Of a DNA stretch of 64,000 nt, positions 2,226 to 64,000 are shown one piece after another. The notes below the pieces were generated by a model. That model had not been told where the DNA came from, did not search any database, and saw nothing but the letters and a program-made list of their open reading frames with translations. Position 1 is the first letter of the stretch. Each line of letters opens with the position of its first letter. Source of the DNA: Cenococcum geophilum (Eukaryota); the NCBI GenBank assembly GCA_050273025.1, contig CP158635.1, positions 18,848,001 to 18,912,000 on the forward strand, read 5' to 3'. Both the position numbers and the translations under genes were made by a program.

Positions 2226-2239
2226 ATTTTTATTGCAGC

Positions 2240-2425
2240 CAAAAATTAGGGTCTGCTTAAGTCGCGATTTTAGCAATTTTAGTAATTTACAGCAACTTGC
2301 ACAGGCTACTTGCGTATTTACAGCAATTTGTATAGGCTACTTGCGTATTTATAGTAAATTGCTGCAAATTGCCGCAAATTGCTAAAATTGCGACTTACGC
2401 AGGTTTTGCAGACCCCGATTTTCGC
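2240..2425. repeat. Subterminal fold-back (inverted repeat) with an internal ~31-bp direct duplication
   Basis: GGGTCTGC-TTAAGTCGCGATTTTAGCAATTT pairs with AAATTGCTAAAATTGCGACTTA...GCAGACCC. Confidence 0.8.
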
Positions 2426-2469
2426 TTACGACAACGTGCCCAAAAAAAAAATTCCTGATGCGCCCTAGG

Positions 2470-3170: not shown

Positions 3171-3299
3171 TAAGGTATATTATTTTATTATACAACTACT
3201 TCTATAACTGCCCTATAGGGCTAGCAAAACTTTTATAAATGCCCTATAGGGCCTAGTAAACCCCCCCTCTACCCCCCCTCCCCTACTCCTTATCCTTAT

Positions 3300-5460: not shown

Positions 5461-7689
5461 TAAATAAAATACCAGAACCTAACTCACCGGAGCCTCTACT
5501 ACTATCCTTAAATACCTTAGTAAAGAAGCCGTACTATATCCCAGTTCTAACTAATAAAGCTAAGCTAAAGAAGAAGATTAATAGCGATATAGGAGAGCAA
5601 AACGTAGTTAAAGGAAAGAGACTTAAAGGACGATTAAAGATCTATACAGGCTTTTTTACTAACGTTACTAACCAGAGCCTTCTAGCTTAAAGATTAGCCT
5701 TTAATATAGGGCTTACATTTTATAAAAAGCTACACCGCAATTAGCTCCTACCGCCGCCTAGAAATTAGAAGGAGCTTTAAAAACATTAATATAAGGAAGA
5801 GTTCGCGGCTACTGCTTAGAAGGAGTATATAAACCTTTAAAATTAAGGAACGTTTTAAGTCGTTAATAAGACAATCTATATTAAAACCGTACCTATTATC
5901 TGGGTATTTATATATAAGACTAATATTAATAGATATCTAACAAGATTTAAAGCTCGTTTTTACGCATAAGGTAATTTATAAGAGTTAGTTTATAAGGACA
6001 CCTATACCATAACTTTAGCAGTAAGATTGTTTAGAGCCTTAATGGCTATTATCGCAATATTTAACCTAAACTGCTAGTAAGGTAATACTATTAATATATT
6101 CGCAAACAGCATAATTAATAAGGTCGTATACGTTAAGTATCTAGATAGATTTCTAATTAAGGGCAAGTGCCTACTTCTCTAAAAAGCGCTCTACGAATTA
6201 AGGCGATTACCTCTGATATAGCACGGTGACTTAATAATAACGCTAAAAAAGGAAGGCTTAAAGCCAGTAGCGGAGGAGCCTTGCCTATATTATAACGATT
6301 AGCTAATAGTCTTCTTCTATATTAATAATATTATAGCTATATTTAAGAAGAAAGACCTACTTAAGTTTTAAACCTTTAAGGAGTACCTTATAAGAAAGTA
6401 CAAGATAAAGGACCTAAGTGACTTTACCTAGTTCTTAGAAATTTAAATTATTCGCAATAAAAAGAATAGGAAGCTCTAGCTTAGTTAGGATTCCTATATT
6501 AATAAAATTACGATAAGCTTTAAAGTTAAAGATTATTATAAGATATATATACTAATAGGTATTAAGGAACTTAAGCCTAATCTAGAGTAAGCCTCTAAGT
6601 AGGATACCTACGCCTATTAGAGGAAAGTTAGATCTATGCTTTATATAGCTAATATTACTTATCTAGATATAGCAAAAACAGTAAGTAAGCTGTTAGAATT
6701 CTTATAAAATCCGTTACTAATTTATAACGCAGCTACTATAAGGGCAATTACCTACCTTAATTAAACTAAGACTTTTATAATTAAGTACTTAAAGGAGAAT
6801 ATAATAAACCAGATCTTAGCAAGGGTAAGTAATATATTATTTAGCAACAATTTAATAAGTAAAAAGAGCATAGAAGGCTATTTATTTACCTTATTTAGGG
6901 GACTAATTAACTAGTAATCTATAAAGTAGAAGTTAGTAATAAAATTAAGCATAGAAGTAGAGCTCTTAGCCCTATTACATATAGCTACCAAGTTAATTTA
7001 GTGGCAGCGATTCTTTAAAGAAATTAGATTTAACCCTAATAAGAAGTAAATAATATATTGCAATAACCTATAAACTATTTAACTACTAACCAAAAGCGAC
7101 GTAGAGCTTAACACTAAGCTTTAACATGTTAATATTTATTACTACTAGCTCCGCCAGGAAGTTTGTAAAGGAAGTATTAATATTAAATAGGTACCTACTA
7201 CGGACATAATAGTAAACGGCCTAATAAAGGCTCTGCCTCGTTAAAAGCACAAGACGTTTATTTAGTAATTAAACATCGTTAATATTAAGGATCTAATTTA
7301 ATTTAATTTAAATAATATTTAGGCAAGGTAAATATATAGAGGATTTCCTTTAACTTAACACTAAATTGCTATTGTAACTTTTTAGTATTTCTACAGCAGC
7401 CTAGAAGGCTTTGTGTAGCTAGGGGGGTGTATTAACCTAAATTAAAGTTCCTTACTACTATCGTAATACTGTCTGACGACCTAGATCGTCTATATGAACT
7501 ATGTCTTAGTTGTCTTATATCTTAAGCTCGTATGTCTTATCGAACATCTCATTACCTGTTTCTCTTAACTATGACCTACTACATGACGACGTCGTTGTTA
7601 CTGTATTTGGACCTACCTAATGTATATAAGAGAGCTTCTAGAGCCCTCTTTAATAAACAGAGTTCTAATTCCTGATCGTCCGTTTAACA
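5461..7689 (+). mobile_element. 3' part of a Ty1/copia element (RT, RNase H, PPT, 3' LTR 7430-7689)
   Basis: Degraded copia motifs (WVFIYK, FKARF, IEVELLAL, YCNNL, HVNIYYY*LRQ), polypurine tract AGGGGGGTG, and an LTR ending TTTAACA. Confidence 0.9.
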
Positions 7690-16627: not shown

Positions 16628-19600
16628 TATTACGGTACTGCAATAAAGTAGACTAAATAACTACGTTATAGTATAAAGAGGAGAAGAAGGTAAAAGGGGT
16701 ATTGTATATAAATAGTAGGGCCAGCCGCCAAGGCGCTAGTAGTAGGCTAGCTAATAGTAGGAAATAGTATAAGACAGTATAAGATAGTATAAAATAGTAT
16801 GTGTTAGGTTAGTGCTGTAATAGTACTCCCCTCTTTAGAAGATTTAGTCCCTAAACTAAATAAGTAACTTATTTTTGCTATAAAGATATTACTTTTACTT
16901 ACCGCTCTTAACTAAGCTAATAGCAATTTTCTATGCCGGGCATAGAAAATCCTAATTAGTTAGTTTAATAAATAAAGTTAGCAGAACTCTACACCGCCAC
17001 TACTTAGCGCTTCTTAGTAAAAAACTAACTAATTAAATAACTTTAACTGGCGGTTAAAGTTCTATAAGATCTTAACCACTATAAATTATCTTTATGGTTG
17101 GCCACGGTTTTAGTATAACTCTCCCTTATCTTATGCCCAGTCTAGGGGTTCTGGCTTCTTAGGGTATTGTTTATAAAACTTTAGTAGTGCGCGCTTGTAC
17201 CCTTTTAGAGATTTCTTAAGTTTCTAGGTTTCCTTATTATAATACTTCTACTTAATATAATATATTAAGAATCTTTTTAAATTCCCACTTATCCGTAATA
17301 TTACCGTTATTATCCCTTTTAGCTATCCTACCTATAATATTATAACATTCCTCTTTATTAATATATGCTTAACTAAAAATCTCTTTAGGGAACTAAAGGC
17401 GGACTTTTAAAGTATAGAAAGACTTATTAATACAGATATAGTTTAGGAGGTTAACTATAACTACTTTTTTATAGGCAGCTAGAACGGGCTAGGGTCCGTC
17501 TTAGTTATTATCCTACTTCCTCTTAGGCCGGTTAGTCTTTATATTTTTAAGGCTAACTATAACCATATTATCCTTTTTAAATATTATACCCTTATCTTAT
17601 TTTATATTAGCGTTATCTTTATAGCGTTGCTAAGAGATATAAGTTAGGGCTTTAAGCTAAGTTAGAATGCGCTTAAAGCGGTTAGCGATAGTATTAGCTT
17701 ATAGGTACTCCTTCTTTATATATATAAATAGGGCTAATAGCTAGGGGCCTGCTGGTTTAATACCTAGATATAGGTTATAGCTATAGTTAGTAAAGAATGG
17801 TGAGATTTCCGTGGTTTTATTAACCTAGTTATTTATAGCAAACTTAGTAAGAGGGAGCCAATCTACTTAGTTATTTTAGGTGAAGCTTATAAAGGCGTGT
17901 AGGTACTTATTTATTACTGCGTTAATAATCTTAGTTTAACTATCTATTTTAGGGTGCTATACAGAGCTGGGGCTTAGGGTTACCTTTAGGCGCTAGTTTA
18001 GGCGACGCTAGAAGTTAGAAATAAATAAAAAGCCTTTATTAGAAATAAGAGTATTTAGAGCGCCGTATAACTTATAGATAGTGTAAATAAATGCTTTAAT
18101 AAGCTCCTTAGTATTTAGGCTAGTAATAGGAATAAAGTGTCTTATCTTTATTAGGCGGTTAATAACGACAAAGATATATCTATATATTTTGCCATTATAA
18201 AGGCACTTAGGTAGGCCAATAACGTAGTTAATGGAGATATTAGTTTATAGGCGGACTAGTAGTTTTAGTAGTTTTAGAAAACCGGGCGGTACTAAGCATA
18301 AAGTCTTTATATAGAAGTAGAGAGCGCAGTCTCTTATAAAGGTAGCTATAAACTATAAAATACCTAGCTACTAATACGTTTGATTAAAAAGGTTTAGTGT
18401 TTTAACGCGGCCTGGGTAACCCGCAAGGCCTAAATTATATATATAGTATATAACTTCTAGTTAGAGTTTAAGTAAATTAGGGATAAATACTTAATTTCTA
18501 TAGTAGATTAGGCTATTAATAATTAAATATTTAGATTTATTATAGCGGAGTAGCTTTTTAATCTGCTTAGGCTAATAGCGTGCTTTATAGTCTTCCTATT
18601 TATATAGCGCAGCTAATATATTCCTAGCGAGTTTATTCTTTATATAGGCATTCTTAATAAGCTCCTTAAGGGTTTTTTTCTTAGGTTTTAGGTCTATTAC
18701 TACAATAAAGTCTTTAATATTCTAGTTTTAGGATTCGCTTAGGGCTACCTATAGCGTTTACGCAATGGGTAGCTACCTTCCTTAGCAATAAAAAGCTACA
18801 GCTCTGCTTTAATGGACAAATATAAAAAAAGGTAGAAATAGAAACAGGGATACCACAGGGTTCACCTATACCCCCTATTTTATTTCTACTATACATACGC
18901 AATATCTGCAGCCTACAAACAGAAGGAGCCTATTCCCTTAGCTATATGGACGATTTTGCAATTACGGTTACTTCGAACTCAGCTAAATCTAATTGTAAAA
19001 AGCTAGAGGGAATAGCGCTAGAGCTAATGTCTAGAGCTAAAGAAGCTGCTATTAGTTTTGATATTAGCAAAACAGAGCTTATACACTTCTATAATAAGCG
19101 TACCACTATAGAAGAAGGGCTAAAGCTAGGAGATATAGAAATATCCCCTAAACCCCTAGTTAGGTAGCTAGGGGTATTTCTAGACTCTAAGCTTACTTTT
19201 AAACAATACGTAGAAATAAAAATCTCTAAAGAAAAAACAGCCTTCTATTTAATTAGAAGACTAGGCAATATATAAAGAGGTCTATCTCTACAAGCTCTAC
19301 GACAGCTCTATATAGCTTGCGTTACTACTATAGCAGACTATGGAATACAATGCTGGTGGAAAAGCAAATCTAGAGACTACCTACTAGCTAGGTACCAATC
19401 TCTACAAAATAAGGCCCTAAAACTAGTTTTAGGAGCGTTTAGAGGATCTCCTACGCAAGCTATGGAAATCGAGGCCTCTATCCCTCCTCCTAGAATTAGA
19501 TTTAAAAAGCTTTGCAATAGCTATACATTAAGAATCCTAAAATTTAAAGAAAACCACGCAATTAAGAAGGCCTATATAAAAGAGATTAATAAGGATAGGG

Positions 19601-25600: not shown

Positions 25601-25908
25601 TATAGTATAGTATTATCGGTTACGCCGGATTGTAATTATACTAGGAAAACGGGAATAATAGACTAGGAAAAAATAAAGGTTGTAATGGGGCGCAATTAGG
25701 GATACTACAAACTGTTACGGTGCTGTAATAAAGTAGACTAAATAACTACGTTATAGTATAAAGAGGAGAAGAAGGTAAAAGGGGGTATTATATATAAATA
25801 GTAGGGCCAGCCGCTAAGGCGCTAGTGGTGGGCCAGCTAATAATAGAAAACAGTATAAGATAGTACGAGATAGTATAAAACAGTATGCGTTAGGTTAGTG
25901 CTGTAACA
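16628..25908 (-). mobile_element. Ty3/gypsy chromovirus-like element (LTRs 16628-16822 and 25713-25908)
   Basis: Matching ~195-bp LTRs; TSD GTATA on both sides; degraded gag-protease-RT-RNase H-integrase order with a chromodomain-like end near 17150-17350. Confidence 0.92.
18743..21116 (+). mobile_element. 5'-truncated Tad1-type LINE with RT, RNase H and A-rich tail
   Basis: GIPQGSPIPPILFLLY and SYMDDFAI (RT); AELYAV, FIDSQAAI and WVPSHLEIYGNKIADKLAK (RNase H); tail (TAAAAAA)n; 13-bp TSD AGGATTCGCTTAG (18730-18742, 21117-21129). Confidence 0.95.
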
Positions 25909-27746
25909 GTATATATATCTAAAAGATATTTATTAAATTATACCCTACTAAATACCTAATATGGGCTCTAGGAGTAAGCTTTTAGATATAAGGAATATTA
26001 TATTTAAATAGGTATACTCTATAGCTATAGGCACGTAAGTAAGCTATATTTAGCTTAGTTAGTAAGAGACCTATTACTAATTAAAGCTTTTTAAAGGGCG
26101 TCTTCTAATTAAGCCGTCGGCTTAGTGTCCTATTTATTATATACGCAGCTTCTTTAAAGACCTTAGGCCAGAGTTCTTCTAGTAGTTATGCTTTAATTTG
26201 CATACATTAAGACTCCGTTATAATTACCCCCTTAGAACGTTCCGTAGGACCGTTCTATTCTAGTATATTTAGAGCTAAGTACTCTACTATAATACCTTCT
26301 TTAGTAACCTAATTATTAAATTTACCTCTAAGCGATAACTTGATATTGATATGGATTATAATAACTTTAAAGCCGTAGCGTTGCTTAACTATATTATAAT
26401 ATTTAATAATTGCTTAGGTAACTGATAACTTTAACGTAAATATCTTAACCTTATTTATTTGTGTTAAATCGTTAAGGAAATATATTGCGTATTTATATCC
26501 GTTATAAGCTTTAATTTCCTAAATTAAATCCGTATATATACGGTAAAAGGGCCTTATCGCCTTATTTATAGGTATCCTTTTTAATATTACCTTATAAGCC
26601 TTATTAACTATATAGGTTTTACATTTAATTATTATAGGGCCTTATATAATCGCCCTAGTCACTTTTTTAGGCAATCGCTTAATTATAGCACTTCCTATAT
26701 ATCCAAGTTAACTATACTAAAGCCATCTATCTATCTTTTAATTTAGTAGAGGTTCCGTTAATTAAGCCGTAAAGGACACGTCCTCTATTATATTTGGCTT
26801 TAATTTATTATATTTAAGAGTTACCTAACCGTAGTAATATCCGCAATATGCAAACTTCTTACTACCGCAACGGTAGAGGTAGTTTCCCTTATTATGCTAA
26901 AAGACACCCTTTTTATTAAGTCTTTAATTATAGATTAGATTTGTATAAAATCCTAGTATATATATAGCCTTATTTAGATAAATCTTCTACTTTCCTAATA
27001 GGGTAATTATTATAACTTTAGCTGTTCCAAAGCCTTTAATATTTTCTATATTAAATCTAGTATATAACTAATTACTAGCCAGTTGGACATCGCCTATAAA
27101 TCTCGCTTAGTTATTAATAATATACAAGGTTATTATAGGGTTAAGAATTACACTATTACGGAGAGTGTAATTAGATGCGATATAAGCTCTAGCTTAATAA
27201 ACTATAAAGCTTTCTAGTGGGTTGCTAGACGAGCTCTTTTGCTTTATACTATCTGGCTTTTTATTAGATAAGGCTTAGCTCCTTAGTTAATTAATTAAGG
27301 CCTTAAGTTTAGGTAAAGAATTAGTAAGCCTTTACTCTACTAACTGCATTTTTAAATCGGTTGGTTTCTATCCTAATGGCCAAACTAACTTAATAAGGTA
27401 GTAGCACCTCTTATATAGATAAGGCCTTCCGTATAAATATAGCGTCGTCTACCTCTTCTAATCTATCCTCCTTAAAGACTCTACTTCTAATTTAGCTTTC
27501 AGTTTAACCTCCAATTTAGCTTCCAATTTAGGCTTATTAATTGGTTCTCCTTTAAAGCTAGCTATATAGGATCTATGCTAGTCCCTTGCCTTCTAAGCAG
27601 ATATTAGGTAATAGTAATTTAATAGACTTCGATAATATTATAAAGGGTAAATAAACGTTCCTTCTTCCACTTAAGTCTCTATAGTTTATACTCCTAATAT
27701 TCTAACTAACTTAATGAGATAGATTTAATGGTATATATAAAGTCCT

Positions 27747-33296: not shown

Positions 33297-34581
33297 TATA
33301 TATAAAGTCCTTAACTGGTTAATTGCTATCTACCTTAGGTAGTTTAACCTTCTTATAATCCTTATACACCCTCTCCTATTTACGGAGCCACTTCTTAATA
33401 TTCTAACTCTTTAGGGCCCTCCTTATTTTAAAATATTAGGTAGCTAAGTTAACCTTTTAAGCGTTATTAGTTAGAGCGACTGCCTACTTAAGTAATATAA
33501 GGACATTATAGACGGTATTTCCTTTAAAGGTGTATTTAATATAGTTATAAGAGATCGTGCTAATAATATAGGTGTATAGAGATATAAGAGCTGCTTCCTC
33601 CTTCTTATATTGCTTATAGGCACAGTTATAGTATTTTTTATAGAGCTTAAAGCTCTTCCTTTTCGTCGTTATTAAGAGTTAAGTATATTATCTTTTAAGG
33701 ATTAACAACTAATAGTAAGGGCTCTAACAGTGCTCTATATCTAAATAAATCCTACTTCTTAACGCTCGGATTAATATATTCCTATATACCCTTACTGTCA
33801 GCTCTATACTTAATTACCCCAATCTATTAGTCCTAATCGTTTAGGCCAGCAAGGATTATAGTATAGGTGGTAATAAGCATTTCGGGTTATTAAGAGGATA
33901 TATTTAAGGCTTCTACTATATAGTTAATAATAAGGTAATTAAGACTTTAAATTAAAAGAGAATGTAATAGATAGCCCGGGCCTATAATTATTAAACGGAC
34001 AAGTTACTTATAAAAACTCTATCTATTAAAGCTGGCTCTAGAAGCTCTCTATATACATAAAGTTGGGGTAAAGGACTAACGATAACGCTGACGACGATTC
34101 TAGAGCTATTACTTAATTGCCACCAGGTCGATATTGCTACTTAGTTAGTAATAGGTAATGAATAGGTAATAGAAAGTAGATAGTAAGACATGCGATGGCA
34201 AGAAACAGGTGTAAGTCATAAGGTGGTACTTGACAGTGACCTTAACGTTTGACATGCAGTGGGAACTAGAACGGGTCCCGTTGAACATAAACCAGGCACT
34301 GCTATCAAACCATCCATTCTGGATCGCACTTCTGGGGCTCATCTAATCCTTTGTATTCGCATTCAGCCAAATACTCCACGCCGTCTCCCTTTAATCCCCG
34401 CGCACCATCGCCTCCCGCCAGGCACACCATCTAGAACGGTTAACAGCAGCGTATGCGGTCTCGTCGCTAGTCTGTCTATATCTTCCATCCCAGCGTCTCG
34501 CAGTGGGCAACCCCGATTTCCTTGCTCCTTTCTTACTTAGAAATCACCTGTCGAGGTTACCCTTCGCCTCCGAATCTAGCC

Positions 34582-38952: not shown

Positions 38953-39037
38953 AGCCGTCGAAATCGGACTCTGCACCTGTACGTAGTGACGGCTACGAAC
39001 CTGGTCTTTGAAGTTTAGATCCAGAGCCAACGCAGAG
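38953..39037 (+). ncRNA. HDV-like self-cleaving ribozyme at the element 5' end (RIP-damaged copy)
   Basis: P1 (A/G)GCCGTC:GACGGCT, P2 CTCTGC:GCAGAG, P3 ACC:AGT (one G>A), L3 TGTACGT, P4 stem, J4/2 G-C-C-A-A; 85 nt. Confidence 0.8.
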
Positions 39038-39968
39038 ACGTCGCATAGCGTGCGGACAGGACCTGGTGGTGGTCGTAGGCGTTAAGGGCGGTGGTAAAAA
39101 ATTTTCGGATAGTGAGATCTTGAAAACCACTACTGTTGGCTCTCTACAATACGACGATTACTACGCTATTCTCCTATCTAGGGCACCTGTACGATCCAAC
39201 ATGGATATACAGTTTTCGATAATATCCCCTATCCCCCAGTAGAAAGCATTAACGACCTTATATTAATGAATAAATAAACGTAAATAAATAAACGAACGAG
39301 CAAATATACGGCCCCTCCTAACCCCTAGGGCGATCGCCCGTGGAGCATACGGTTACTCGCTATACTGCCGTAATACTACTAAAACCAATAGCCGGATAAC
39401 CCCGTACAGTTTTCCTTATCTCCTCTTAACAGAGTAGTGCCCTTAGAGAGGGCCTAGTGACTAGGGCCTAGGTATAAAAGATACCCAGATATATATCTCG
39501 CTTTCGTCTTTTAGTATTAGGATAGTAGAACAGATAAATCCCCCTTACGCCTTTAATAGGCCTTAGGGGGGAGGGAGGTATAGTATATATAGCAATAGTT
39601 AATAAGAGACAGTATATAGGGGGTAGTTAAGATATAGGATATAACTATAAGCATACGGCAATTAATCGGTAAGGCCTAGCTAGGACGTAGTGAACCCTAG
39701 CTTTAAATAAGCTAGAGAAGGAAGTAGTAGTTCCTAAGGAGTTTAAAACATCTAAGGAGGAGGACGTAGCTATAGGCCTATAGGGCCGCTGCTACGTACA
39801 GGCATGGCAATTTGGGTTTTTTTATCTTACTAAGGTGGCTTATAGGGTTTTTCCTCCCCCCTAATAGCAAGGGGTTTTTCCTATTAATATTACTTTCCCC
39901 TTATATACGGAGTAGTCTGCGTAGGCCTAGATAGGATCCGTATTAGATATTAATTAAAGAATCTACTA
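38953..39968 (+). mobile_element. ~1-kb non-coding non-LTR retroelement (SINE-like), copy 1
   Basis: Flanked by ~16-bp TSD (T)ACTATAAACCTAGGT; (CTA)n tail; no ORF; homologous to the copy at 56949-63875. Confidence 0.88.
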
Positions 39969-42900
39969 CTACTATAAACCTAGGTATCCCTTGGCTTAAT
40001 TATCTTTAAAAGCTCTTTAATTAACTTTAGATAATTTAGTGTGGTTTATCCAAATTATATTAAGAGGATTTTAGCCTATATAATTAAGTTATTAATATAT
40101 ACTAAGGTGTTAAAGAATATAACCTTACTCTTTTTAATCCTGTAAATACTTATAAAGGTATATATACTTAATTAAGATCTTCTATTAGCATCGCTCTACG
40201 CTTTTAAAAAGTATAGCAATTTAATGCCTAACCCTAACTGTTGGAAACATAGGGCAAATTACCAATACTACTTAAGTAGATACAGTAATGGAAAAGCTTA
40301 TTATTCTAAATAGGGGAGGGTAAGGAATTTAAGGTTCCTTACTATACTAGTGCCGCGACGGTATATGACGGTAAGTTGCCTTATATAATGGTAATATACC
40401 GCACGTAAGGGCAAATTGCCTTATTCCCAACACTAGCAACTCTTCTTTTTGTGGTTGCTATCTATATATAAATAGACAGTATATAATAATACGACCGTAG
40501 GCAGACTATAGTAGAATTTGGTAAGTAATACGCCTTATTTTACTAACCCGGACTTTTACTAACTAATTACGATTTTCTATCCCCGGGATAGAAAATCGCT
40601 ATTAGCTTGCTTACCACTAGCGCCTTAGCAGCCCTTGCCGCATTTTCTACTTCCTCTTAACCTAACCTTTAACTTATATACGTAGAGTATTCGTATTAAC
40701 AAACGTCTCTAGTGCCTTATTTAGGTTTGCCTTTATTATTATATCTACTAGGTTATTTTAGCCATTAATCTATTAAATCTTAAAGAGTTCTTAACGCTCG
40801 TAAGATTGCCGTAGTGCTATAATATTAATTATAAGGCGCTTCTCCTTTGTAGTACTAAGCTTAACTAAATACTTATAAAGGGAATATAAGTTAGTATATA
40901 CAATTATAGGGATAATAGGGAGTTTAAGTCGATCTATAATTATCTTTAAGGTAGTTCTAATTGCAATTACTATATTAACTCTACTAACTATTTTATATAT
41001 CTCTAACGCTAGAACGCTTTAAGTGACGCGTTTACTCTTAGTTAAGCTCTAATAGATAAAATTACCGTAGATTGTAAAGTCACTCTCTCTAGTAGATTCG
41101 TTCGCGATAATAATCTTATATTCTAGCTAGAAGCTAAAATCTTTATTATTTATAAACGATCTATTAACAAATATAAAAAGCTTAGTAGTAGGAAGGTTAA
41201 TAGGTACGTAGAGTAGTCCTTAATTAAGATAGCTCCTTTGCTAGAAAAGACGCTTATTTAGGGCAAGGATGTCCTTCTTAGTTAGTTCTTAGTATTAAGC
41301 GGCAATAGAGAGATTAAAGAAAGCTTTGGGTTAATAGATAGAAGCTATATAAGCTCCGCAAGCGCGTTGCTCCACGTATCCTTACTTTAGAGAATTAATA
41401 TTAATAACGTTAATCTTCTTACCTTAACCTTTCTAGCATAGGGCAATAGAATCCTTATTTAGGGAAATAATACATTTATTAAAGAGTAATAGTGTTATTA
41501 AATTAAGTCTTTCCTTTAGCTTTGCTATAAGATTTACCTTTACTAGCTTATCTTCTTTAAGAGCTAAGAATTAGTTGTCTCTTAAAATAATTATATTATC
41601 TATTTATATGCCAACGATTCTAAATAGAGTTCCTATAGCTGCGATAAGGAAGTAGGGATTAAATATAGAAGTAGTTATTAAAAGCTTCTCATTATAGTGC
41701 TTGCTATAGGTAGCCTACTAATAAGTTCCTACCTCTGTAATTCTATATAGTGGCTTAAGCACAACTATAATTGTATCTTCGGGATATTGGTGGCGAATTT
41801 ACTCTAGAAGGTATACTAGTATTAAGCGCTAAAGGCGTATCTCTAATTAGGTATAGGCCTAGATAATATCTTATAAATAAACCGCTATTTTATTCTTTAT
41901 TAAGAAGGGAGCTAGCGCAATAATAACTCGCTAACTAGCTTATTAAATTATAGGGGATTGCGTAAGAATTACTTCCTTACTATTATTGTTATAACCTTAA
42001 ATAACTAGCCTTAACTTCTTAAATGGGGTATTAGTAGCTTTGCCTTTAATCTTATTAACTATTCTTAACCTAAATATGCGAACCCTATTAAACTTAGTAG
42101 GGTTATACTTTTTAAACTTAAAGACTTCTCTTGCAATAAGACCGTTAATCTCCTACTTATTAGATGCTTGGAAAGGAGCTCCTAAAGTTATAATACAGCC
42201 TTCCTTTTAGAGCTGTTTTGCAAGCTTAAAGTTAGCCTTCTCTTTAGCTATTATAAAGGTCATTAATAGCTTAACTCTATTCTTAATAGCAATAATAAGT
42301 TGCTCTTTAAAATTAATAAGGTATTAGCGGTTTTGTAATCCTTTTGGGCGACCTCTACCGCGTTATAGTTGCGGCGTATCTACTATAGTTATATTAGGGT
42401 TGTAGTTGCCTTTTAGGGCACGTTAATCGTAGTTCTCCTCTAGGGTATTTCTTGGGGTATCTTCTAGGGTATCCTATAAAGGCTTAGAACTATTATCTTT
42501 ATAGTAAGGCTTAATAACAGTTAAATGGAATTAAGTAGGTCTATAGGGCATCTAAAGAATATAAGTCTAACTATTAATTATAATAAGTTTATATAGGCCT
42601 AACTATTCTTCCTTTTTACGCTATACGCGTACCTTAGATTAGAGTAGTAGATTAAGCGTAGTTAAGGTATTTAGGCCATTTCTTATTCCTAGTACGTTGT
42701 TAACCTAGCGCGTAGCGTAGAGATATCGTACCTCCTTTATTACCTTATAAATTGCCTTAGCTCGTTATATAATAGAGGGAAATAGTAGAGAATTATTAGT
42801 TATTTAAGGGTAGGCGCTAAAGACTAGTAGTATAGGTACGAGCCTATCTAGGCTAGCAGTATTGTTAATAGCCTTAATAGCCATCTATAGGATAAGCTCT

Positions 42901-46080: not shown

Positions 46081-46614
46081 GGAGGCTCTGCACGAGGCTC
46101 TATACGAAGCTCTGCGTACAGAGGCTCTGCACGAAGCTCTGCGCATAGAGGCTCTGCACAAAGCTCTGCACGAAGCTTCGCATAAGGCTCTTCACGAGGC
46201 TCTACACGAAGCTCTGCGTACAGAGGCTCTGCACGAAGCTCTGCACGAAGCTCTGCACGAAGCTCTGCACGAAGCTCTGCACGAAGCTCTGCACGAAGCT
46301 CTGCACGAAGCTCTGCACGAAGCTCTGCACGAAGCTCTGCACGAAGCTCTGCACGAAGCTCTGCACGAAGCTCTGCACGAAGCTCTGCACGAAGCTCTGC
46401 ACGAAGCTCTGCACGAAGCTCTGCACGAAGCTCTGCACGAAGCTCTGCACGAAGCTCTGCACGAGGCTCTGCACGAGGCTCTGCGCGAAGCTCTGCGCGA
46501 AGCTCTGCGTACAGAGGCTCTGCACGAGGCTCTGCGAGAAGCTCTGCGTACAGAGGCTCTGCACGAGGCTCTGCGCGAAGCTCTGCGTACAGAGGCTCTA
46601 CACGAAGCTCTGCA
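46081..46614. repeat. 12-bp tandem array ACGAAGCTCTGC
   Basis: Long run of perfect units at about 46230-46460 with variant units on both sides. Confidence 0.97.
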
Positions 46615-46744
46615 TCGGGTCCCCGCTATATTCCCGATAGCCTCTACACGTGCCTCTACCCTATGTAACCACCTTATTTTTTACCCTTCCTTCCTTCTTT
46701 ATATCCTCCCTACCTAGGGAGGCACTAGAACGGCAGCCAGCAGA

Positions 46745-56569: not shown

Positions 56570-57482
56570 GTTATTTTATTTCCTTTAAGGGTATAGACTA
56601 GGAGTGTCTTGGCTATTTAATTTAACTATATATATTAAGGCTTAATAGCCTATATTAATTTAATAGAGTTCTCCTTCTTAACTGCACTGTTTAATAGTTA
56701 TAAGCCCAGGCCATCTACTGCATTAACTTTAATTTAAAGGCTTAATTACCTTATTGTTAATATATAACTGTAGAAGCCTTAAATATGTCCTCTTAATAAC
56801 CTAAAATGCTTATTACTACCTATACCGTAATTCTCGCAGGCCCGAACAATTGGGACTAATAGATTAGAGTTATTAAGTATAGAGCCGACGTTAAGAATAT
56901 ATAGAAATATATTAATCTAAGTGTTAAAAGATAGGATCTACCTAAATAGTAGTAGTTCTTTGATTAACGTCTAATATGGATCCTATCTTGGCCCACGCAG
57001 ACTACTCCATTACAGGGGGGAAAACTTATAATTTACATAAAGAAAACCCTGCAGTTGGGGGAGGAAAAACCCTATAAGCAGCCTCAGTAGGATAAAAAAC
57101 CCCAATTTGCCATGTTTACACGTAGCAGCGGCCCTACGGGCCTACTGCACGTCCTCCTCCTTAGATATTTTGAACTTCTTAGGAACTACTGCTTTCTTCT
57201 CTAGCTTATTAAAGCTAGGGTTCACTACGTCCCAGCTAGGCCTTACTAATCGATTGCTGTGTCTTATTGTCTCTTTATATCCTATATCTTGCCCATCCCC
57301 TATATGCTATCTCTTATATAGACCACTGCCATATACGCCTTGCCTCCCCCCCCCTAGAGCCATTAAAGGCGTAAGGGGGATTTATCCATTCTAACCACCG
57401 TAATACTAATAAGCGAGCGGGATATTATGTATTTAGGTATCTTTTATACCTAAGCCCCAGCTAGGCCCTTTCTAAGGGTTAC

Positions 57483-60400
57483 TGTTACGGGACACCCCCG
57501 TAATACCTTGCACACATTTACCTATTTCCACCGACTTAGCAATTAGAGACTAACCGCGAAATGGCAATCTAACGGCAATCTAATGGCAATCTAACGGCAA
57601 TCTACGGCATTCTGCTATATTCTGCCAAGTTCTACTAAATTCTGCTAAGTTCTACTAGGACTATGACCTGAACCCTATTCTGCCTATATATGTGTTAACT
57701 AAGCAACCAAGTTAACAATATATGCCCTTTCTTCCCGTTTTCCTACCTTTTTTTCTTATGCAACGTCTTAACCTCCTTATACAGTTTATGTATATAGCTT
57801 AATAATATCTACCTTACTATATATATTATCGTCGCTTGTACTTACTCCGTAATACTACGTTGTATTAACTACCTACACTACCGTTAATATGCAGAACGAA
57901 CCTAAAGCCCCTATAACGGCCGCTGGTATTATAACCGCACTTTAAAAATAATTAGTAGGGATATAGAAGTCTTTTATAGACGCCCTTAAATAGAATTAAG
58001 CTACTTTAAATTAACGATAAGCCAAATAAGAAGCACAATACCAGCAATTAATTAAGGACCTCTAAGAAGAAGTCCGTGCCCTTAAAATGCCCACGCTAGG
58101 ACCTTAAGACTAAATGCTATCTCCGGAGATAAACACGCGAAACGCGAGCCCCGAACCCGCAGTAGCCACTTACCCTAAGCCGACTACTATACTAAAACGA
58201 TCCAAACAACTACTAGATCCCTTAGTATTTACTAGTAAACGATAAAAGCTCTAATTATTTCTAAGCTAGCTTAAAAATAAGCTAACTAGTAACGCTAACC
58301 GTTACCTAACTAAAGCTAACCAACTCTGTTACGCCCTAAGTTAACTAGGAGGAGATGCAGCCGACCTTATTAAACCTCTTTAGCTAAACTTAGTGTAAAG
58401 CCTAGTTATACTTCTTAAAGCTATATATAGTGACCCAAACCGCTAAGCTACTACTTAAAGAAAGATAAACTATATAACTTAAGGAACAAAAAGTTTCCTA
58501 GTATACTTCTCTAAATTTAACCGTTACGTAAAGGAAATAGGATGGAATAACTCCGCACTAATTAATAGCCTTATTAAATCCCTAAGCCCTAAACTAAAAA
58601 CCTCCCTAATAGGCGTAGACCTACTGGGAGCCCTTAATACCTGCGTAAACGTTATTAATAAACGGTATAATGATATACTACGCCTAATACTAAAGCCTAC
58701 CCCCTAATACAATATAGCAACCCCACGAACGTCTACTAAGCCATCTTAGCTTAAGTACCCTAACGCCATAGATATTAACACTAGGACCCTAGAATATGCC
58801 CTACTAGGGTCCTTTAAATAAGAATAACGCATTAAGCTAGGCCTCTGCTTTAAATATAGAAGTAACTCCCACCTCTTTAACTACTGCTCCGCCCCTTTTT
58901 AAAAAGACCTATAAATAGCTAATGCTAGTAGCCTACCGCCCTAATTCTCTAGCTACCGTCCCTAATCTTTATCTAGCTCTAGCTTGATAATTAGTAAGCA
59001 CCGTTTACGAGGACGAAGCTCCAACTAATATCCTATAAGAACCCCACCCCAATCGCCTCCAAAAGGAAGGTCCTAGAGCTAAGTCGCTCTCCGGGACGGC
59101 TCTACTACAGGATCTCGTTAAACGCATTTAACGTTATAAACTCCGACTCTTGGGACCATAGCATAACTATTAACTGTTATCTTTGGTAGAATAGTTAATA
59201 GGCTAACGCTTAAATCCTAATTAACACAGGAGCTAGCAGCATAGGATTTATTAATAAGATCTTTATGTAAGATAATGGTTTTACCCTAATCCCCCTTAAC
59301 CGGTATATTAACGTATTTGGATTTAATAGTAAACGCACCGTCTTAGGCCGTATTACCTATGTAGTAACCCTAAGACTCCAATACCTAAACCATGAAGAAC
59401 TAATTAAGCTTTTCGTTACTACCCTAGGTTACTTAGTGATCCTTAGACAACCCTAGATAAAGCTATATAAGGTAACTATTAATTAAAACAACCTTAAGCT
59501 TCTATTTACCACCTCCCGTTGCAAGTAGAAGTGCTTTATAACTTGCTGCTTAGACCCAGAACTAAAATCTAAAGAATCTACCAGATTCCACCAATATAAG
59601 ATTTCCACCGAATTTTACCGATATAAGAATTCTACCGACACCCACTAAGGATCCGAAAATTCTACTGAGCTCTATAAGTTATTACTAAGCACTACACCGC
59701 CCTAAACTAAATAGAAACTTAAGCTTAGCACACGAAACTACCAGAAGGACTGGTATCCTATAATAAAAAGAATACTTAAAGAACCCAAACCCAAATCTAA
59801 TACTGACTCTATACCTAATACTAAACCCAAACCTAAATAAGAAACTATAGACGAGCCGAACGAGCTCGGTACCCTAGATATCCGCATAATTAGAGCTACT
59901 CCGTTAGCGTAACTTGCTAAGAAACCTAAACATACAATCTTTGCTATTACTATAGCTAATATTAAGAAGGCCTTAGCACTAAAGAAGTATACTAACCCTA
60001 CTACAAAGGTACTAGTAGAGTACCATAACCGCCTAGAGGCATTCTTACAAAAGGAAGCCAATAAGCTACTAGAATACCGATTGTACGACTATAAGATTAT
60101 ACTTAAAGAAGGAAAGCAGCCTGGATTTGGACCCTTATACGGGATATCCTAAAACGAACTCTAAGTACTATAAAAGTATTTAGATGAGAACCTAAGCAAA
60201 GGATTTATTAAAGCAAGCTTATCGCCTGTGGCCGCACCAGTAATCTTCGTTAAGAAACCCGGCGGCGGTTTACGCTTCTGTGTAGACTACTAAGCTCTTA
60301 ACGCCGTTACTATTAAGAACTAATATCCAATCCCGTTAATATAGGAGACACTAAACTAACTAAGTAAGGCTTGTTACTATACGAAGCTTAATATTATCTC

Positions 60401-63385
60401 TATATTTAACCGTCTCCGCATTATAAAAGGGGATAAATAGCTTACTACATTTCGTACCCAATATGGACTATTTAAGTACTTAGTAACACCCTTCGGCCTC
60501 ACAAACGCCCTAAGCTTGTTTTAACATTATATAAACAACACCCTGCGCCCTTACTTAGACATCTTCTATACTACTTATATCGACAACATCCTAATATATA
60601 GTAATAACCTAATTAAATATCAGAAACATGTTAACCTTATCCTATAAGCCCTATACGGAGCTAGTTTATAATTAGATATAGATAAATGCAAGTTCTATAA
60701 AACGGAAGTCCTATACCTTAGACTCCTTATTTCTATAAACGGTATACAAATAGACCTAAAGAAAGTTAAAGTAATTGTAAACTAGCAAGAACCTAAGAAC
60801 GTTAAGGATATAAGAGCCTTTATAGGATTTACTAATTTCTACTAACGGTTTATTAATAACTTCTCCGCCCTAGTTTTACCCCTTATAGCTCTAACCTAAA
60901 AGAATAAAGTTTTTATCTTTAATAAGAAATGCAAGAAGGCCTTTGCCTATCTAAAAGTTATGTTTACTACTGCGCCCGTGCTCTAATACTTTAACCTAAA
61001 CTGAATAAGTGTTATAGAAGCCGACTTATCTAACTACGTCACTAGAGGCATCCTGTCTTAATATAACAAGGATGGAGTATTATACCCTATAGCATACTTC
61101 TTAAAACGACTAAGCCCAGCTGAATGTAACTACGAGATCTACGATAAGGAATTGTTAGCTATTATTAGGTGTTTTAAATAATGGCGACCTAAACTAGAAG
61201 GCGCTGGATTTCTAATTAAGGTCCTTAGCAACCATAAGAACCTATAGTACTTTATAACCACGAAACAGCTAAGTCATTATTAGGCCCGCTAGTTAGAATA
61301 TTTATCTCATTTCCGATTCTTAATTACGTACCGCCTAGGCGTCTAAGATTAAAAGCCTAATGCCCTAACCTAACGCTCGCAAGACGCGCCAGCCCTAGAA
61401 GAAGCGCGCTCTTACTAAAATCAGACCCTACTTTACCCTAAACTATTTAACCCTCCTACTAAAGATCTTACGGTATACGTCCTTGAAATAACCAATTAAT
61501 TAATTAAATAGATTATAGTCGATGAATACCTAAATAATGAGTTTATTTAAGAGATGCTTAAGCTAATATAAGATAGCATCAGATACTCTAAAAAGATTTC
61601 TCTAAGTAAATACGAAGCCCGTGGAAACCGCTTATATTACTAGAACCGTCTAATTATCCCTAATTATAATAAGCTTAAGCTTAAACTCTTTAAACACGTA
61701 TATAATCTACTTATTACCGGCTACCTGGGCCAAGGAAAGACCCTAGAACTACTCTAACGGGAGTATTATTGGCCAAATATGTATAATATAACACGAAGGT
61801 ATATCTCTAGCTGCTATACCTACCGACGAGCTAAAGCCTCGCATAAGACGTATAACGGTCTTTTAAAGCCGCTACCTGTTCCAAACTAAAGATAGAAGGA
61901 TATCTTAATTAACTTTATTATTAACCTTCCTAATAGTAGAGGCTGCACGAATATTATAGTAGTTGTAGACCAACTATCTAAAATAAGACACTTAATCGCC
62001 TGCCCTAATATATTAACGCCTGCTGTTACCCAACTATTCCTAGATTACGTATAGAAACTCCACGGACTCCCTAAAACAATTATCTCCAATAGAGGTAGCC
62101 AGTTTATCTCAGTATTCTAAAAAGAACTAACTACTTGACTCTACATTAAAGCACTATTGTCTACTATATATTACCTAGAAACGGATAGCCAAATAGAACG
62201 CGTAAATACTATAATAGAACAGTATATTTGGATATACACGTCGTATTTATAGGATAACTAGATTAACTGGCTCGTATTCGCCGAGTTTACTATAAATAAT
62301 TCCATCTCGGAAACCACGAAAGTCTTCCCATTCTTAGCCAATTACGGCTAGCACCCATAAATGGGTTTTGAACCCTTTAGTAATATTCCTTACCCTACTT
62401 ATTACGCCTTACAAGTTATAGAAGTAAATAAATTCGTAGAGAAGATAGAGAAACTATAATAGTTCCTTACTAATAAGATAATATAGGCTTAATCTATCTA
62501 TAAAGCCGCAGCGAATAAGAAATAAACCCTAGTACTAGCCTACCAAATTAGTAATTTTATCTGGCTAGATATAAGAAATCTAAACACGAAACAACCTACT
62601 AAGAAACTTAATTAGAAGAACGCTGGCCCTTATAAGGTTAAAAAGGTTATCTCTCCTTATACCTACTAACTGAAGCTCCCTAATACGGTTAAAATCCACC
62701 CCGTATTCTATACGTTAGTCCTCCGCCCTGCTACCCCTATATTAGACGCCCTGCCTAGATAGATATAAAACCCTCCCCTACCAGTTGAAGTAGATAGTAA
62801 GAATAAGTACTTTATTAAAAGAATTAACGATATTAAGTATGATAAACGGAAACGCTAATATATATATCTTACGAAATGGAGAGGCTTTATTAAGTCCTTA
62901 TAGGAACCCGTTAACTCTATAGGACTTATATAAGCCATAAAAGACTTTTATAAACTCCACCTAGAACTACCATAGCCCCATCTCGCAGAAGCTCAAGTTT
63001 AAAGGGGGGGTATTGTCACGGGACACCCCCGTAACACCTTGCACACGTCTACCTATTTCTACTAACTTAGCAATTAAAGACTAACCGCGAAATGGCAATT
63101 TAACGGCAATCTAATGGCAATCTAACGGTAATCTACGGCATTCTGCTATATTCTGCCAAGTTCTACCAAATTCTGCTAAGTTCTGCCAGGACTATAACCT
63201 AAACCCTATTCTGCCTATGCACGTGTTAACTAAGCAACTAAGTCAACAATATATACCCTTTCTTCCCGTTTTCCTACCTTCTTTCCTTACGCAACGTCTT
63301 GACCTCCTTACACAGTTTATGTATATAGCTTAATAATATCTACCTTGCTATATATATTATCGTCGCTTATACTCACTCCGTGACA
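57483..63385 (+). mobile_element. Full-length Ty3/gypsy chromovirus-like element (LTRs 57483-57854 and 63014-63385)
   Basis: 372-bp LTRs; [48 protein letters not shown], integrase and chromodomain-like YLTKWRGF; PPT AAAGGGGGGG. Confidence 0.96.
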
Positions 63386-63789
63386 GTTACCACTCCGTTA
63401 AAAGGAGATAGGGAAAACCGTGGGTCGCAATCCAAGCTGCTAGGTAGTATTTAGTAGTTGAAAACGGCAAGTAACTATATGCTCCGCGGGCGACTGCCCT
63501 AGGGGTTAGGAGGGGCCGTATATTTACTCGTTCGTTTGTTCACTCGTACGCTCGTTCGTCCGTTAATGTAAGGTCATTAATACTTTTTATTAGGGGCTAG
63601 GGGATGCTTTTAAAAGCTGTTTATCCACGTTGGATTATATAGGTGCTTAGTAGGAGAACTAGTGGCTATATTATAAAGGGGTACCATTAGTAGTAGTTTT
63701 CGAGATCTTACCATCCTATATAAAAACTTTTTACTACGCCCCACGACGCATATAACCACCAGGTCCTACTTACACGCGCTGTACAACGT

Positions 63790-63875
63790 CTCTGCGTTGG
63801 CTCTGGGTCTGAACTTCGAAGACCTAGGTTTGTAGCCGTCACCACGTACAGGTGCAGAATCTGTTTTCGACGGCC
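63790..63875 (-). ncRNA. HDV-like self-cleaving ribozyme at the element 5' end (core intact)
   Basis: GGCCGTC GAAAACAGA TTCTGC ACC TGTACGT GGT GACGGCT AC AAAC CTAGGTCT TCGAAGTTC AGACCCAG AG C CAA C GCAGAG: P1 with G1-U wobble, P2, P3/L3, P1.1, P4 and J4/2 in HDV order. Confidence 0.88.
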
Positions 63876-64000
63876 GGATCTACCTAAATATAGAGCCCCG
63901 TTAGAGCTATTACTATTAATTATTAACCCTTAAAAGACTACGTTCTTAACTCTTAGTAATAATAAAAAGGAAGAGCTTTAAGCTCTATAGAAATACTATA

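What the first reader, a model, noticed from the sequence alone, without database searches (positions are those of the whole stretch)
63790..63875. HDV-like ribozyme forms the exact 5' end of a fungal SINE-like element
Seen: on the minus strand the first 86 nt after the TSD fold as a nested double pseudoknot. P1 is GGCCGUC/GACGGCU (7 bp, G1-U wobble), P2 UUCUGC/GCAGAG, P3 ACC/GGU around L3 UGUACGU, P1.1 is 2 bp, P4 is CU(A/G)GGUCU/AGACCCAG, and J4/2 is G-C-C-A-A with the candidate catalytic C at 63800. G1 (63875) abuts the TSD directly. Known: HDV-family ribozymes cleave just 5' of G1 and process the 5' ends of R2, L1Tc and some other non-LTR elements. Inference: this non-coding element is cut out of read-through transcripts by its own ribozyme, so it may need no tRNA-derived Pol III head. 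I do not know of this specific family being described, but cannot verify novelty.
Basis: partly seen in the sequence, partly recalled or inferred. Interest (0 to 1): 0.92.

Follow-up and report, generated by a model that had tools for sequence, protein, structure and literature searches.

The report
Ribozyme-headed non-coding fungal retroelement
A 1-kb non-coding jumping element of a fungus begins, to the base, with a hepatitis-delta-type self-cutting RNA fold, an arrangement known from insect and trypanosome elements but apparently not yet described for a fungal one.

Summary
On the minus strand, 63875-63790 fits every helix of the HDV-like nested double pseudoknot. G1 abuts a 14-15 bp target-site duplication.

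The element is about 1.02 kb, not about 0.5 kb. Copy A is split by a nested LTR retrotransposon, so its 3' half lies at 57477-56949. A second full copy lies at 38953-39971. Both are RIP-decayed.

A 22-nt core pattern recovered 121 copies from metagenome contigs:
- Flanks are unrelated up to position -1, and 115 of 118 copies have G at +1.
- In 40 of 51 testable copies the duplication touches G1.
- The fold is 98.4% paired. P4 varies in length and shows compensatory changes, while the core is invariant.

The element has no ORF and no tRNA-like head, and it carries seven T-runs. It is therefore not a Pol III SINE. Stranded RNA-seq shows abundant sense RNA, with coverage starting within the first 13 nt.

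Self-cleavage is untested and the autonomous partner is unknown. Precedents exist in NARTc/SIDER, R2 SIDEs and fungal HDV ribozymes, so I call it a new member of a known kind.

The parts
63790..63875 (-). HDV-like ribozyme fold, element nt 1-86 (copy A). P1 5' 63875-63869; J1/2 63868-63860; P2 5' 63859-63854; P3 5' 63853-63851; L3 63850-63844; P3 3' 63843-63841; P1 3' 63840-63834; P1.1 3' side 63833-63832; P4 63827-63820 with 63810-63803; J4/2 63802-63796 (candidate catalytic C76 = 63800); P2 3' 63795-63790.
63386..63875 (-). Element copy A, 5' half (nt 1-490), ending at the nested insertion
56949..57477 (-). Element copy A, 3' half, ending in a CTACTACT tail
63876..63889 (-). 5' copy of the target-site duplication ATTTAGGTAGATCC (15 bp if T 63890 is counted)
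56934..56947 (-). 3' copy of the same target-site duplication; the uninterrupted paralogous host repeat is at 33627-34022 (+)
57483..63385 (-). Nested LTR-retrotransposon-like insertion that splits copy A. 372-bp LTRs at 63385-63014 and 57854-57483, TG..CA termini, 5-bp duplication GTAAC (63390-63386 and 57482-57478)
38953..39971 (+). Element copy B, full length (1019 nt), RIP-decayed. The ribozyme at 38953-39041 has A at position 1 and a C.A mismatch in P3
38938..38952 (+). 5' target-site duplication of copy B, (A)CTATAAACCTAGGT. The 3' copy is at 39971/2-39985. The empty site in a paralogous repeat is at 44662-44649 (-)

Best explanation
This is a roughly 1.0-kb non-coding, non-autonomous non-LTR retroelement of a RIP-active ascomycete-type fungus. 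Its first ~86 nt encode a canonical HDV-like self-cleaving ribozyme.

Proposed mechanism:
1. Any transcript that starts upstream of the element folds into the double pseudoknot and cuts itself just 5' of G1. HDV-like ribozymes need no upstream sequence.
2. Every template RNA therefore begins at G1.
3. A LINE reverse transcriptase supplied in trans primes at the 3' simple-repeat tail and copies the RNA to its 5' end.
4. New copies begin exactly at G1, next to a 13-15 bp target-site duplication.

Shown: the fold, its exact position, uniform 5' ends, duplications and tails, lack of coding capacity and of a Pol III head, and abundant sense-strand RNA bounded by the element.

Inferred: catalysis, the trans-acting LINE, and a likely internal promoter working alongside the ribozyme, as in L1Tc.

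The two window copies are decayed fossils. Copy A keeps an intact core. Copy B is probably dead.
For: Fold:
- All five helices are present, L3 matches U-N-N-N-C-G-U, and J4/2 matches G-C-N-A-A.
- The strict descriptor hits only this site in the window and gives 1 site in 199 and 1 in 200 shuffled sets. It gives 0 hits outside the known copies in 222 kb of related loci.
- When the ribozyme alone was searched against 4227 Rfam families, the two best of 4 hits were HDV-type families: RF02682 at 13.8 bits and RF01787 at 13.7 bits. Both align from model position 1 at G1 with P3 and L3 in register.

Family (121 metagenome copies):
- In 118 copies with at least 30 nt upstream, pairwise identity is 0.349 in the 20 nt before G1 and 0.927 in the first 20 nt of the element. 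G is at +1 in 115 of 118.
- Of 51 loci with enough flank, 42 have a duplication of 11 bp or more. In 40 it touches G1. Median duplication is 15 bp and median element length 1010 nt.
- On 85 distinct sequences, 98.4% of cells are paired, against 27-45% when partners are slid.
- P4 has three pairs with changes on both sides (32 cells). The ribozyme comes in eight lengths from 79 to 94 nt, nearly all of it from P4 deletions that keep a stem.

Window: both copies start at the same base and have empty-site paralogues.

RNA: in run X21, depth on the sense orientation is 390-6240 against 9-118 on the other. 501 of 1253 molecules end at element nt 13. No loose end at G1 appears among the listed rows.

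Element: the longest sense ORF is 13 aa and there are seven T-runs of 4 or more. No tRNA, 5S or 7SL match was found.
Against: - No cleavage assay exists.
- P1, P2, P3 and P1.1 hardly vary. Nt 21-42 were fixed by my search pattern, so covariation supports only P4, the least diagnostic helix. Those changes are RIP-type transitions inherited by subfamilies, so they represent few independent events.
- No Rfam HDV family comes near its gathering score: 13.8 against 44 and 13.7 against 37. Searches over a wider stretch gave no HDV hit.
- Pseudoknot-free folding is unremarkable, with z-scores from +0.42 to -1.37. RNAalifold prefers an alternative pairing of the P2 5' strand with a second CAGAG at the base of P4.
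- RNA-seq ends pile up at nt 13, not nt 1, and there is no pile-up exactly at G1. This fits the loss of terminal nucleotides in second-strand cDNA synthesis (recalled textbook knowledge) but does not pin the end.
- The 50:1 sense bias points to a promoter of the element's own, which could define the 5' end without cleavage.
- Well-folded HDV-like candidates in trypanosome SIDER1 elements were inactive in vitro (PMC4035085, passages).
- My strict descriptor was written after seeing the candidate.
- Copies were collected by nt 21-42, so 5'-truncated copies were not sampled.
Confidence: 0.78

Rival explanations
1. The fold is a real, conserved RNA structure, but the 5' end is set by transcription starting at G1 from an internal promoter. 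The pseudoknot would then serve another purpose, such as binding the reverse transcriptase or protecting the uncapped end, and it cleaves little or not at all.
For: Sense-strand bias of about 50:1 suggests an own promoter. R2 protein binds a pseudoknot within its ribozyme region (review PMC6765202, passages). Pr77 of L1Tc is both promoter and ribozyme (listing). Some well-folded SIDER1 candidates are inactive.
Against: The core nucleotides needed only for catalysis are kept in nearly all of 119 copies: G75, A78 and A79 are invariant, and G1 (with its wobble to U42), C76 and C77 are at least 90% conserved. An X15 contig of 666 nt (depth 44) runs 295 nt upstream across G1, so upstream-initiated RNA or DNA exists.
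Confidence: 0.12
2. It is a once-active ribozyme inherited from a LINE ancestor. It is now an inactive relic, carried along only because it lies in the element's 5' end.
For: No activity data exist. The two window copies are mutated: copy B has A at position 1 and a P3 mismatch.
Against: The core is unchanged across subfamilies that differ by 8-12% elsewhere and that have reshaped P4 while keeping it paired. That pattern points to selection on master copies.
Confidence: 0.07
3. The resemblance to the HDV fold is due to chance.
For: A loose descriptor gives chance hits in this window. An earlier scan note (e1-7578702) records a chance HDV look-alike in another ascomycete repeat.
Against: The strict descriptor gives about 0.005 hits per window-sized shuffle. 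The hit falls exactly on an independently defined element boundary. The two best Rfam hits are HDV families aligned in register.
Confidence: 0.03

Closest known systems
L1Tc / NARTc and SIDER elements of trypanosomatids (L1TcRz within Pr77)
   Same: An HDV-like ribozyme occupies the first ~77-90 nt. Cleavage is at +1. The ribozyme heads non-coding, non-autonomous derivatives. Insertions are dispersed and flanked by duplications. A dual promoter-plus-ribozyme arrangement is plausible here too (PMC3185411 and PMC4035085 passages; PMC3383444 abstract).
   Different: The host here is a fungus with RIP. The element is about 1.0 kb with (TAC)n, (TTA)n or (TC)n tails instead of poly-A. No autonomous partner sharing the ribozyme was found. 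Activity is untested.
R2 elements and their SIDEs (short internally deleted elements) in Drosophila
   Same: [quoted passage not shown] ORF-less derivatives are mobilised in trans (PMC6765202 passages; PMC3414825 abstract).
   Different: R2 inserts site-specifically in 28S rDNA and is co-transcribed with rRNA. This element inserts at dispersed A/T-rich sites.
drz-Agam-1 (RF01787) and the F. prausnitzii HDV ribozyme (RF02682)
   Same: These are the best two Rfam hits. P1 starts at model position 1 = G1. P3 ACC/GGU and L3 U..(C)GU align in register, and J4/2 is GC(U/C)AA.
   Different: Scores are far below the gathering thresholds (13.7 against 37 and 13.8 against 44). P2, P4 and J1/2 are unrelated in sequence.
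Fungal HDV ribozyme variants (Li and Breaker 2017, PMC5640933)
   Same: HDV-class self-cleaving ribozymes in ascomycete genomes, present in many copies (230 in 26 species) with 'widely variable gene associations', and validated in vitro (abstract, passages and Table S1).
   Different: Those variants have C-G at the cleavage site, an E-loop in P4 and an extra nucleotide between P2 and P3. This one has G.U, a plain P4 helix and contiguous P2-P3, so it is the canonical type. That paper's main text never mentions transposons or repeats (0 occurrences). Its alignment files could not be read.
Classical fungal SINEs (tRNA-derived, Pol III; names recalled, not checked here)
   Same: Short non-coding retroelements mobilised in trans and flanked by duplications.
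   Different: This element has no tRNA-like head and no 5S or 7SL match. It has seven internal T-runs and is about 1 kb long.

Membership tests
HDV-like self-cleaving ribozymes (structural class) | Nested double pseudoknot: P1 stacked on P1.1 and P4, P2 stacked on P3, in the canonical strand order (PMC4908430 passages) | tested here: met
   All helices are present in copy A. The strict descriptor hit is unique in the window. 98.4% of cells are paired in 85 distinct copies, against 27-45% when partners are slid.
HDV-like self-cleaving ribozymes (structural class) | Cleavage site at the first nucleotide of P1, with no upstream sequence requirement | tested here: inconclusive
   The first nucleotide of P1 (G1, wobble-paired with U42) coincides with the element's 5' end in the window copies and in 115 of 118 other copies. 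Upstream sequence is unrelated among copies. Actual scission was not observed.
HDV-like self-cleaving ribozymes (structural class) | Conserved core nucleotides in L3 and J4/2, including the catalytic C | tested here: met
   L3 UGUACGU matches U...CGU in the consensus lines of RF02682 and RF01787. In J4/2, G75, A78 and A79 are invariant, and C76 and C77 are at least 90% conserved in 119 copies. The match to HDV and CPEB3 G-C-N-A-A is recalled, not tested.
HDV-like self-cleaving ribozymes (structural class) | Mg2+-dependent self-scission giving 5'-OH and 2',3'-cyclic phosphate ends | not testable with these tools
   Needs in vitro transcription assays or mapping of 5'-OH ends.
Any curated Rfam HDV-type family | Score at or above the family's gathering threshold | tested here: not met
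   No hit at E up to 10 in 4 kb of the window or in 4.7 kb of loci. With the ribozyme alone: 13.8 bits against 44 and 13.7 bits against 37.
Fungal variant HDV ribozymes (Li and Breaker 2017) | C-G pair at the cleavage site, E-loop replacing part of P4, extra nucleotide between P2 and P3 | tested here: not met
   This element has a G.U pair at the cleavage site, a regular 5-8 bp P4, and a P2 5' strand directly followed by P3 (features taken).
Non-LTR (target-primed) retroelement, non-autonomous | Variable-length target-site duplications, a 3' simple-repeat or A-rich tail, and no ORF | tested here: met
   Duplications of 14-15 bp with empty-site paralogues in the window. Duplications found in 42 of 51 loci, median 15 bp. 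Tails are (TAC)n, (TTA)n or (TC)n. The longest sense ORF is 13 aa.
Non-LTR (target-primed) retroelement, non-autonomous | An autonomous LINE partner sharing the 5' or 3' end | tested here: inconclusive
   No other HDV-like site in 222 kb of loci. No LINE-type ORF among 33 ORFs chosen from 77 of at least 110 aa; the one RVT_1 fragment lies between 197-nt direct repeats. The contig records cannot be searched and no whole genome is held.
SINE in the strict sense (Pol III transcript) | tRNA-, 7SL- or 5S-derived head with internal Pol III promoter, and no internal T-run terminators | tested here: not met
   ARAGORN finds no tRNA-like gene in 4 full copies or in the window. No Rfam tRNA, 5S or 7SL hit was found. 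Seven T-runs of 4 or more occur in the consensus, which is about 1030 nt long.

The most novel reading that the evidence does not exclude
This may be a distinct kind of fungal non-autonomous retroelement. It would be 'ribozyme-headed', Pol II-transcribed and very highly expressed. Its canonical HDV-like ribozyme, possibly coupled to an internal promoter, would replace the Pol III head of ordinary SINEs. Mobilisation would be through its trinucleotide-repeat tail by a LINE that does not itself carry the ribozyme. If so, many 'orphan' fungal HDV ribozymes with variable gene neighbours could in fact be 5' ends of such retroelements.
Probability: 0.3. Interest if true: 0.65.

Novelty: new member of a known kind. 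Interest (0 to 1): 0.55.

Why it matters
It extends ribozyme-defined 5' ends of non-LTR retroelements from animals and trypanosomes to fungi. It also offers a concrete biological role for HDV-class ribozymes in fungal genomes, whose function was left open when they were reported.

It is strongly transcribed and has clean duplications. That makes it a convenient natural system for three questions: how a 5'-OH, uncapped RNA serves as a retrotransposition template, how a ribozyme and a promoter coexist in the same 5' end, and how RIP erodes such elements.

For genome annotation, it supplies a diagnostic 5' signature for an otherwise featureless 1-kb repeat.

Tried and rejected
- Whole-genome access: none is held. 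The autonomous partner therefore could not be sought genome-wide.
- The loose HDV descriptor gave 19 sites, mostly in palindromic tandem repeats at 1.7-2.2 kb, and scores barely separated the candidate (61 against 60). I dropped it as a test.
- Rfam over wider stretches gave nothing relevant.
- Pseudoknot-free folding (RNAfold, RNAalifold) neither supports nor refutes the fold, as expected for a double pseudoknot.
- The covariance model R1 found only the two known copies in the window. The next hit scored 13.2 bits at E 0.18.
- The Atlas search of a 467-aa ORF gave no taxonomic lead. Pfam on window ORFs gave little.
- I first considered AGGTAGAT near 63347 as the 3' duplication. I rejected it because it lies inside the LTR of the nested element and recurs in the other LTR.
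- I considered that the 375-nt segment after nt 490 belongs to the element. I rejected this: it is an LTR with TG..CA ends and a 5-bp duplication.
- Earlier-scan look-ups by place and by sequence found nothing for this genome or element.
- Not held: Webb 2009, Webb and Luptak 2011, Ruminski 2011.
- Searches that found no fungal HDV-headed retroelement in print.
- The RNA metatranscriptome contigs (X15, X16, X18) cover the element heavily, but contigs cannot show ends or strand, and DNA may be present in those libraries.

Full report
**1. What is in the sequence.**
Read on the minus strand from 63875, the RNA fits the HDV-like topology helix by helix.
- P1 is GGCCGUC (nt 1-7) with GACGGCU (36-42), closed by a G1.U42 wobble.
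- J1/2 is 9 nt.
- P2 is UUCUGC (17-22) with GCAGAG (81-86).
- P3 is ACC (23-25) with GGU (33-35), around the 7-nt L3 UGUACGU.
- P1.1 is G27-C44 and U28-A43.
- P4 is CUAGGUCU (49-56) with AGACCCAG (66-73), with one A.C mismatch.
- J4/2 is AGCCAAC (74-80), with C76 at 63800.

**2. Is it more than chance?**
A loose descriptor is useless here. It reports 19 sites, 15 of them in palindromic tandem repeats near 1.7-2.2 kb (14 on the plus strand, 1 on the minus), and their scores nearly equal the candidate's.

I then wrote a strict descriptor with these rules:
- G1.U plus six Watson-Crick pairs in P1.
- Three Watson-Crick pairs in P3.
- L3 of 7-8 nt, with its positions 2-3 pairing to the two bases after P1.
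- P4 of at least 5 bp.
- C-N-A-A in J4/2.
- P2 of at least 5 bp.

It hits only 63875(-) in the whole window. It found one site in 199 dinucleotide shuffles of the window, and one in 200 64-kb sets made by shuffling the element's own 5' 500 nt. It found nothing outside the known copies in 221,919 bases of related loci. I wrote this descriptor after seeing the candidate, so these numbers are somewhat generous.

Independently, when the ribozyme alone was searched, the two best of 4 Rfam matches among 4227 families were both HDV-type ribozymes. They are RF02682 (13.8 bits, E 1.1) and RF01787 (13.7 bits, E 1.2). Each aligns from model position 1 at G1 with P3 and L3 in register. They are far below gathering scores, and wider searches show no HDV hit at all.

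**3.
A self-comparison of the window and reading of the junctions give the following picture.

Copy B (38953-39971, plus strand, 1019 nt) sits in a repeat whose uninterrupted paralogue lies at 44898-44396. The paralogue overlaps itself by 14 bp at the insertion point. This gives a 14-15 bp duplication, (A)CTATAAACCTAGGT.

Copy A starts at 63875 and runs to 63386. It is then interrupted by a 5.9-kb LTR-retrotransposon-like insertion (57483-63385). That insertion has 372-bp LTRs, TG..CA ends and a 5-bp duplication GTAAC. Copy A resumes at 57477 and ends at 56949 in a CTACTACT tail.

The flank left of 63876 and the flank right of 56948 are the two halves of one host repeat, which is uninterrupted at 33627-34022. 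They overlap by 14-15 bp, ATTTAGGTAGATCC.

In copy B the base at position 1 is A. This is either G1 changed by RIP in a TpG context or one more base of the duplication.

**4. The family.**

*5' ends.* In 118 copies with at least 30 nt upstream, pairwise identity is 0.349 in the 20 nt before G1 and 0.927 in the first 20 nt of the element. Position 1 is G in 115 of 118. The first seven bases are GGCCGTC in 103 of 119. Positions -12 to -10 are almost only A or T, which indicates a target preference.

*Duplications and length.* Of 51 loci with enough flank on both sides, 42 show a duplication of 11 bp or more. In 40 it touches G1 with no gap, in 2 there is a 2-nt gap, and 9 show none. Median duplication is 15 bp and median element length 1010 nt. 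Tails are (TAC)n, (TTA)n or (TC)n.

*Ascertainment.* Copies were selected by nt 21-42, so 5'-truncated copies were not sampled. Among copies that have those bases, however, none starts at nt 2-20.

**5. Structure across copies.**
I aligned 119 ribozymes: 117 loci plus the two window copies. L008 and L085 were dropped because they lack the 3' part. L035 and L103 were dropped because the contig begins inside the ribozyme.

With the five helices written as a pseudoknotted structure, 98.4% of 2150 cells in 85 distinct rows are standard pairs. That compares with 27-45% when partners are slid by 1-3 columns.

Changes on both sides occur at three pairs, all in P4 (32 cells). The ribozyme comes in eight lengths from 79 to 94 nt, nearly all of it from P4 deletions, and the shortened P4 versions still form a stem.

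P1, P2, P3 and P1.1 are almost invariant. Part of that is forced by my search pattern, so covariation says nothing for or against the catalytic core. The P4 changes are RIP-type transitions shared by subfamilies, so independent events are few.

The overall pattern is an invariant core, an invariant G75/A78/A79, and a plastic but always paired P4. This is what is expected of HDV-like ribozymes, whose core is formed by L3, J4/2 and the base of P2-P3 (PMC4908430, passages).

Nested-only folding is unremarkable, with z-scores from +0.42 to -1.37. RNAalifold prefers pairing the P2 5' strand with a second CAGAG at the base of P4, which is a possible inactive conformer.

**6. Nature of the element.**
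- A majority consensus of 51 full copies is about 1032 nt with 49.5% G+C.
- Its longest ATG ORF is 13 aa in sense and 39 aa in antisense.
- It contains seven T-runs of 4 or more.
- ARAGORN finds no tRNA-like sequence in four full copies or in the window. Rfam finds no tRNA, 5S or 7SL match.

It is therefore a non-autonomous non-LTR element, not a Pol III SINE.

Window copy B is 87.0% identical to the consensus. Of its 131 substitutions, 92 are C>T or G>A. These concentrate at CpA (49 of 106 sites) and CpG (29 of 112), against CpC (6 of 159) and CpT (7 of 131). This is a RIP-like signature. Neighbouring ORFs hit fungal-type domains (DUF3716, NACHT N-terminal helical).

No autonomous partner was found. 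There is no other HDV-like site in the loci. I scanned 33 chosen ORFs out of 77 of at least 110 aa, and the only reverse-transcriptase fragment lies between 197-nt direct repeats. Neither the whole genome nor the contig records can be searched.

**7. RNA.**
I laid one stranded raw-read RNA run of the coded organism B (X21) and three metatranscriptome contig sets on a near-consensus copy with its flanks (L002:1381-2600, G1 = 1481), at 85% likeness.
- X21 gave 17,893 reads from about 12% of the run.
- Depth with the first mate on the minus strand is 390-6240 across the element, against 9-118 on the other orientation. For the usual stranded chemistry this means sense-strand RNA.
- Depth is 7-12 upstream and 1-11 downstream. 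Those flanks belong to one metagenome locus, so low depth there means little.
- More telling, 501 of 1253 molecules end exactly at nt 13. Bin arithmetic implies that most of the others stop within a few bases of it. No loose end at G1 is among the listed rows, but 491 rows were not shown.

So the RNA has a sharp 5' boundary within the first 13 nt. It is not at nt 1, and there is no pile-up exactly at G1. Loss of the terminal 10-20 nt in RNase H-primed second-strand synthesis (recalled textbook knowledge) would explain this. The data fit a G1 end but do not prove one.

One 666-nt X15 contig (depth 44) continues 295 nt upstream of G1. It is either an uncut precursor or DNA.

A further 905 molecules end on the 3' side at element nt 672.

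**8. Mechanism.**
The best reading has five steps.
1. Transcripts are made either from a promoter inside the element (suggested by the 50:1 sense bias) or from upstream.
2. Those that begin upstream fold the ribozyme and are cut 5' of G1.
3. The resulting RNA is copied by a LINE enzyme in trans, starting at the simple-repeat tail.
4. Full-length cDNA ends at G1.
5. Insertions therefore start at G1 beside a duplication of about 15 bp.

Steps 2 and 3 are inferred. The products of steps 4 and 5 are observed.

**9. Comparison with what is known.**
The arrangement matches L1Tc/NARTc and SIDERs in trypanosomatids, and R2 with its SIDEs in flies. In those systems an HDV-like ribozyme heads autonomous and ORF-less elements alike (PMC3185411, PMC4035085 and PMC6765202, passages; PMC3414825, abstract).

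HDV-class ribozymes are also known in fungi. Li and Breaker 2017 report 230 variant representatives in 26 species, plus 11 canonical ones found earlier, with 'widely variable gene associations' (abstract, passages, Table S1). Their variants differ from this one. They have C-G at the cleavage site, an E-loop in P4 and an extra base between P2 and P3. Their main text never mentions transposons or repeats.

Six literature searches found no fungal retroelement headed by an HDV-like ribozyme. However, Webb 2009, Webb and Luptak 2011 and Ruminski 2011 are not held. The alignment supplements of Li and Breaker cannot be read. I therefore cannot exclude that this ribozyme is among the sequences listed there.

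**10. Verdict.**
The element is a new member of a known kind. It is well supported by anatomy, copy statistics and expression, and it lacks only the cleavage assay and the partner LINE.

Noticed in passing
window 57483-63385 (-): LTR-retrotransposon-like insertion of 5.9 kb nested in element copy A. It has 372-bp LTRs that are about 92% alike, TG..CA ends and a 5-bp duplication GTAAC. The same LTR family appears upstream of a metagenome copy (L083 flank).
   Followed up: partly
window 1715-2223 and 46082-46615: Two related arrays of palindromic tandem repeats (unit about 12 nt and multiples of it). They produce many false hits with a loose HDV descriptor.
   Followed up: no
element consensus nt 351-400 (window about 63525-63476 minus strand; 39300-39350 plus strand): A second strongly conserved block of the element (0.936 identity to the consensus, against 0.72-0.90 elsewhere). 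My search pattern does not bias this region. Its function is unknown.
   Followed up: no
L002:2152 (element nt 672): In RNA run X21, 905 molecules have their 3'-side end here and depth falls from about 2500 to about 520. This may be a shorter RNA species or a divergence artefact.
   Followed up: no
positions -15 to -1 before G1 in 118 metagenome copies: Insertion-site preference. Positions -12 to -10 are almost only A or T, and most duplications begin with TA.
   Followed up: partly
window 2514-2852 (+); 18826-19164 (+): An ORF fragment with a Pif1 2B helicase domain. Separately, an RVT_1 reverse-transcriptase fragment lying between 197-nt direct repeats (16630-16825 and 25715-25911), probably another LTR element.
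   Followed up: no
window 38772 (-), 52209 (-), 29824 (+): A/T-rich chance hits of the loose HDV descriptor. None passes the strict descriptor.
   Followed up: yes
ribozyme nt 17-21 with nt 71-75 (window 63859-63855 with 63805-63801): The P2 5' strand can pair with a second CAGAG at the base of P4 as an alternative, and RNAalifold prefers this pairing. It may be a competing inactive conformer.
   Followed up: no
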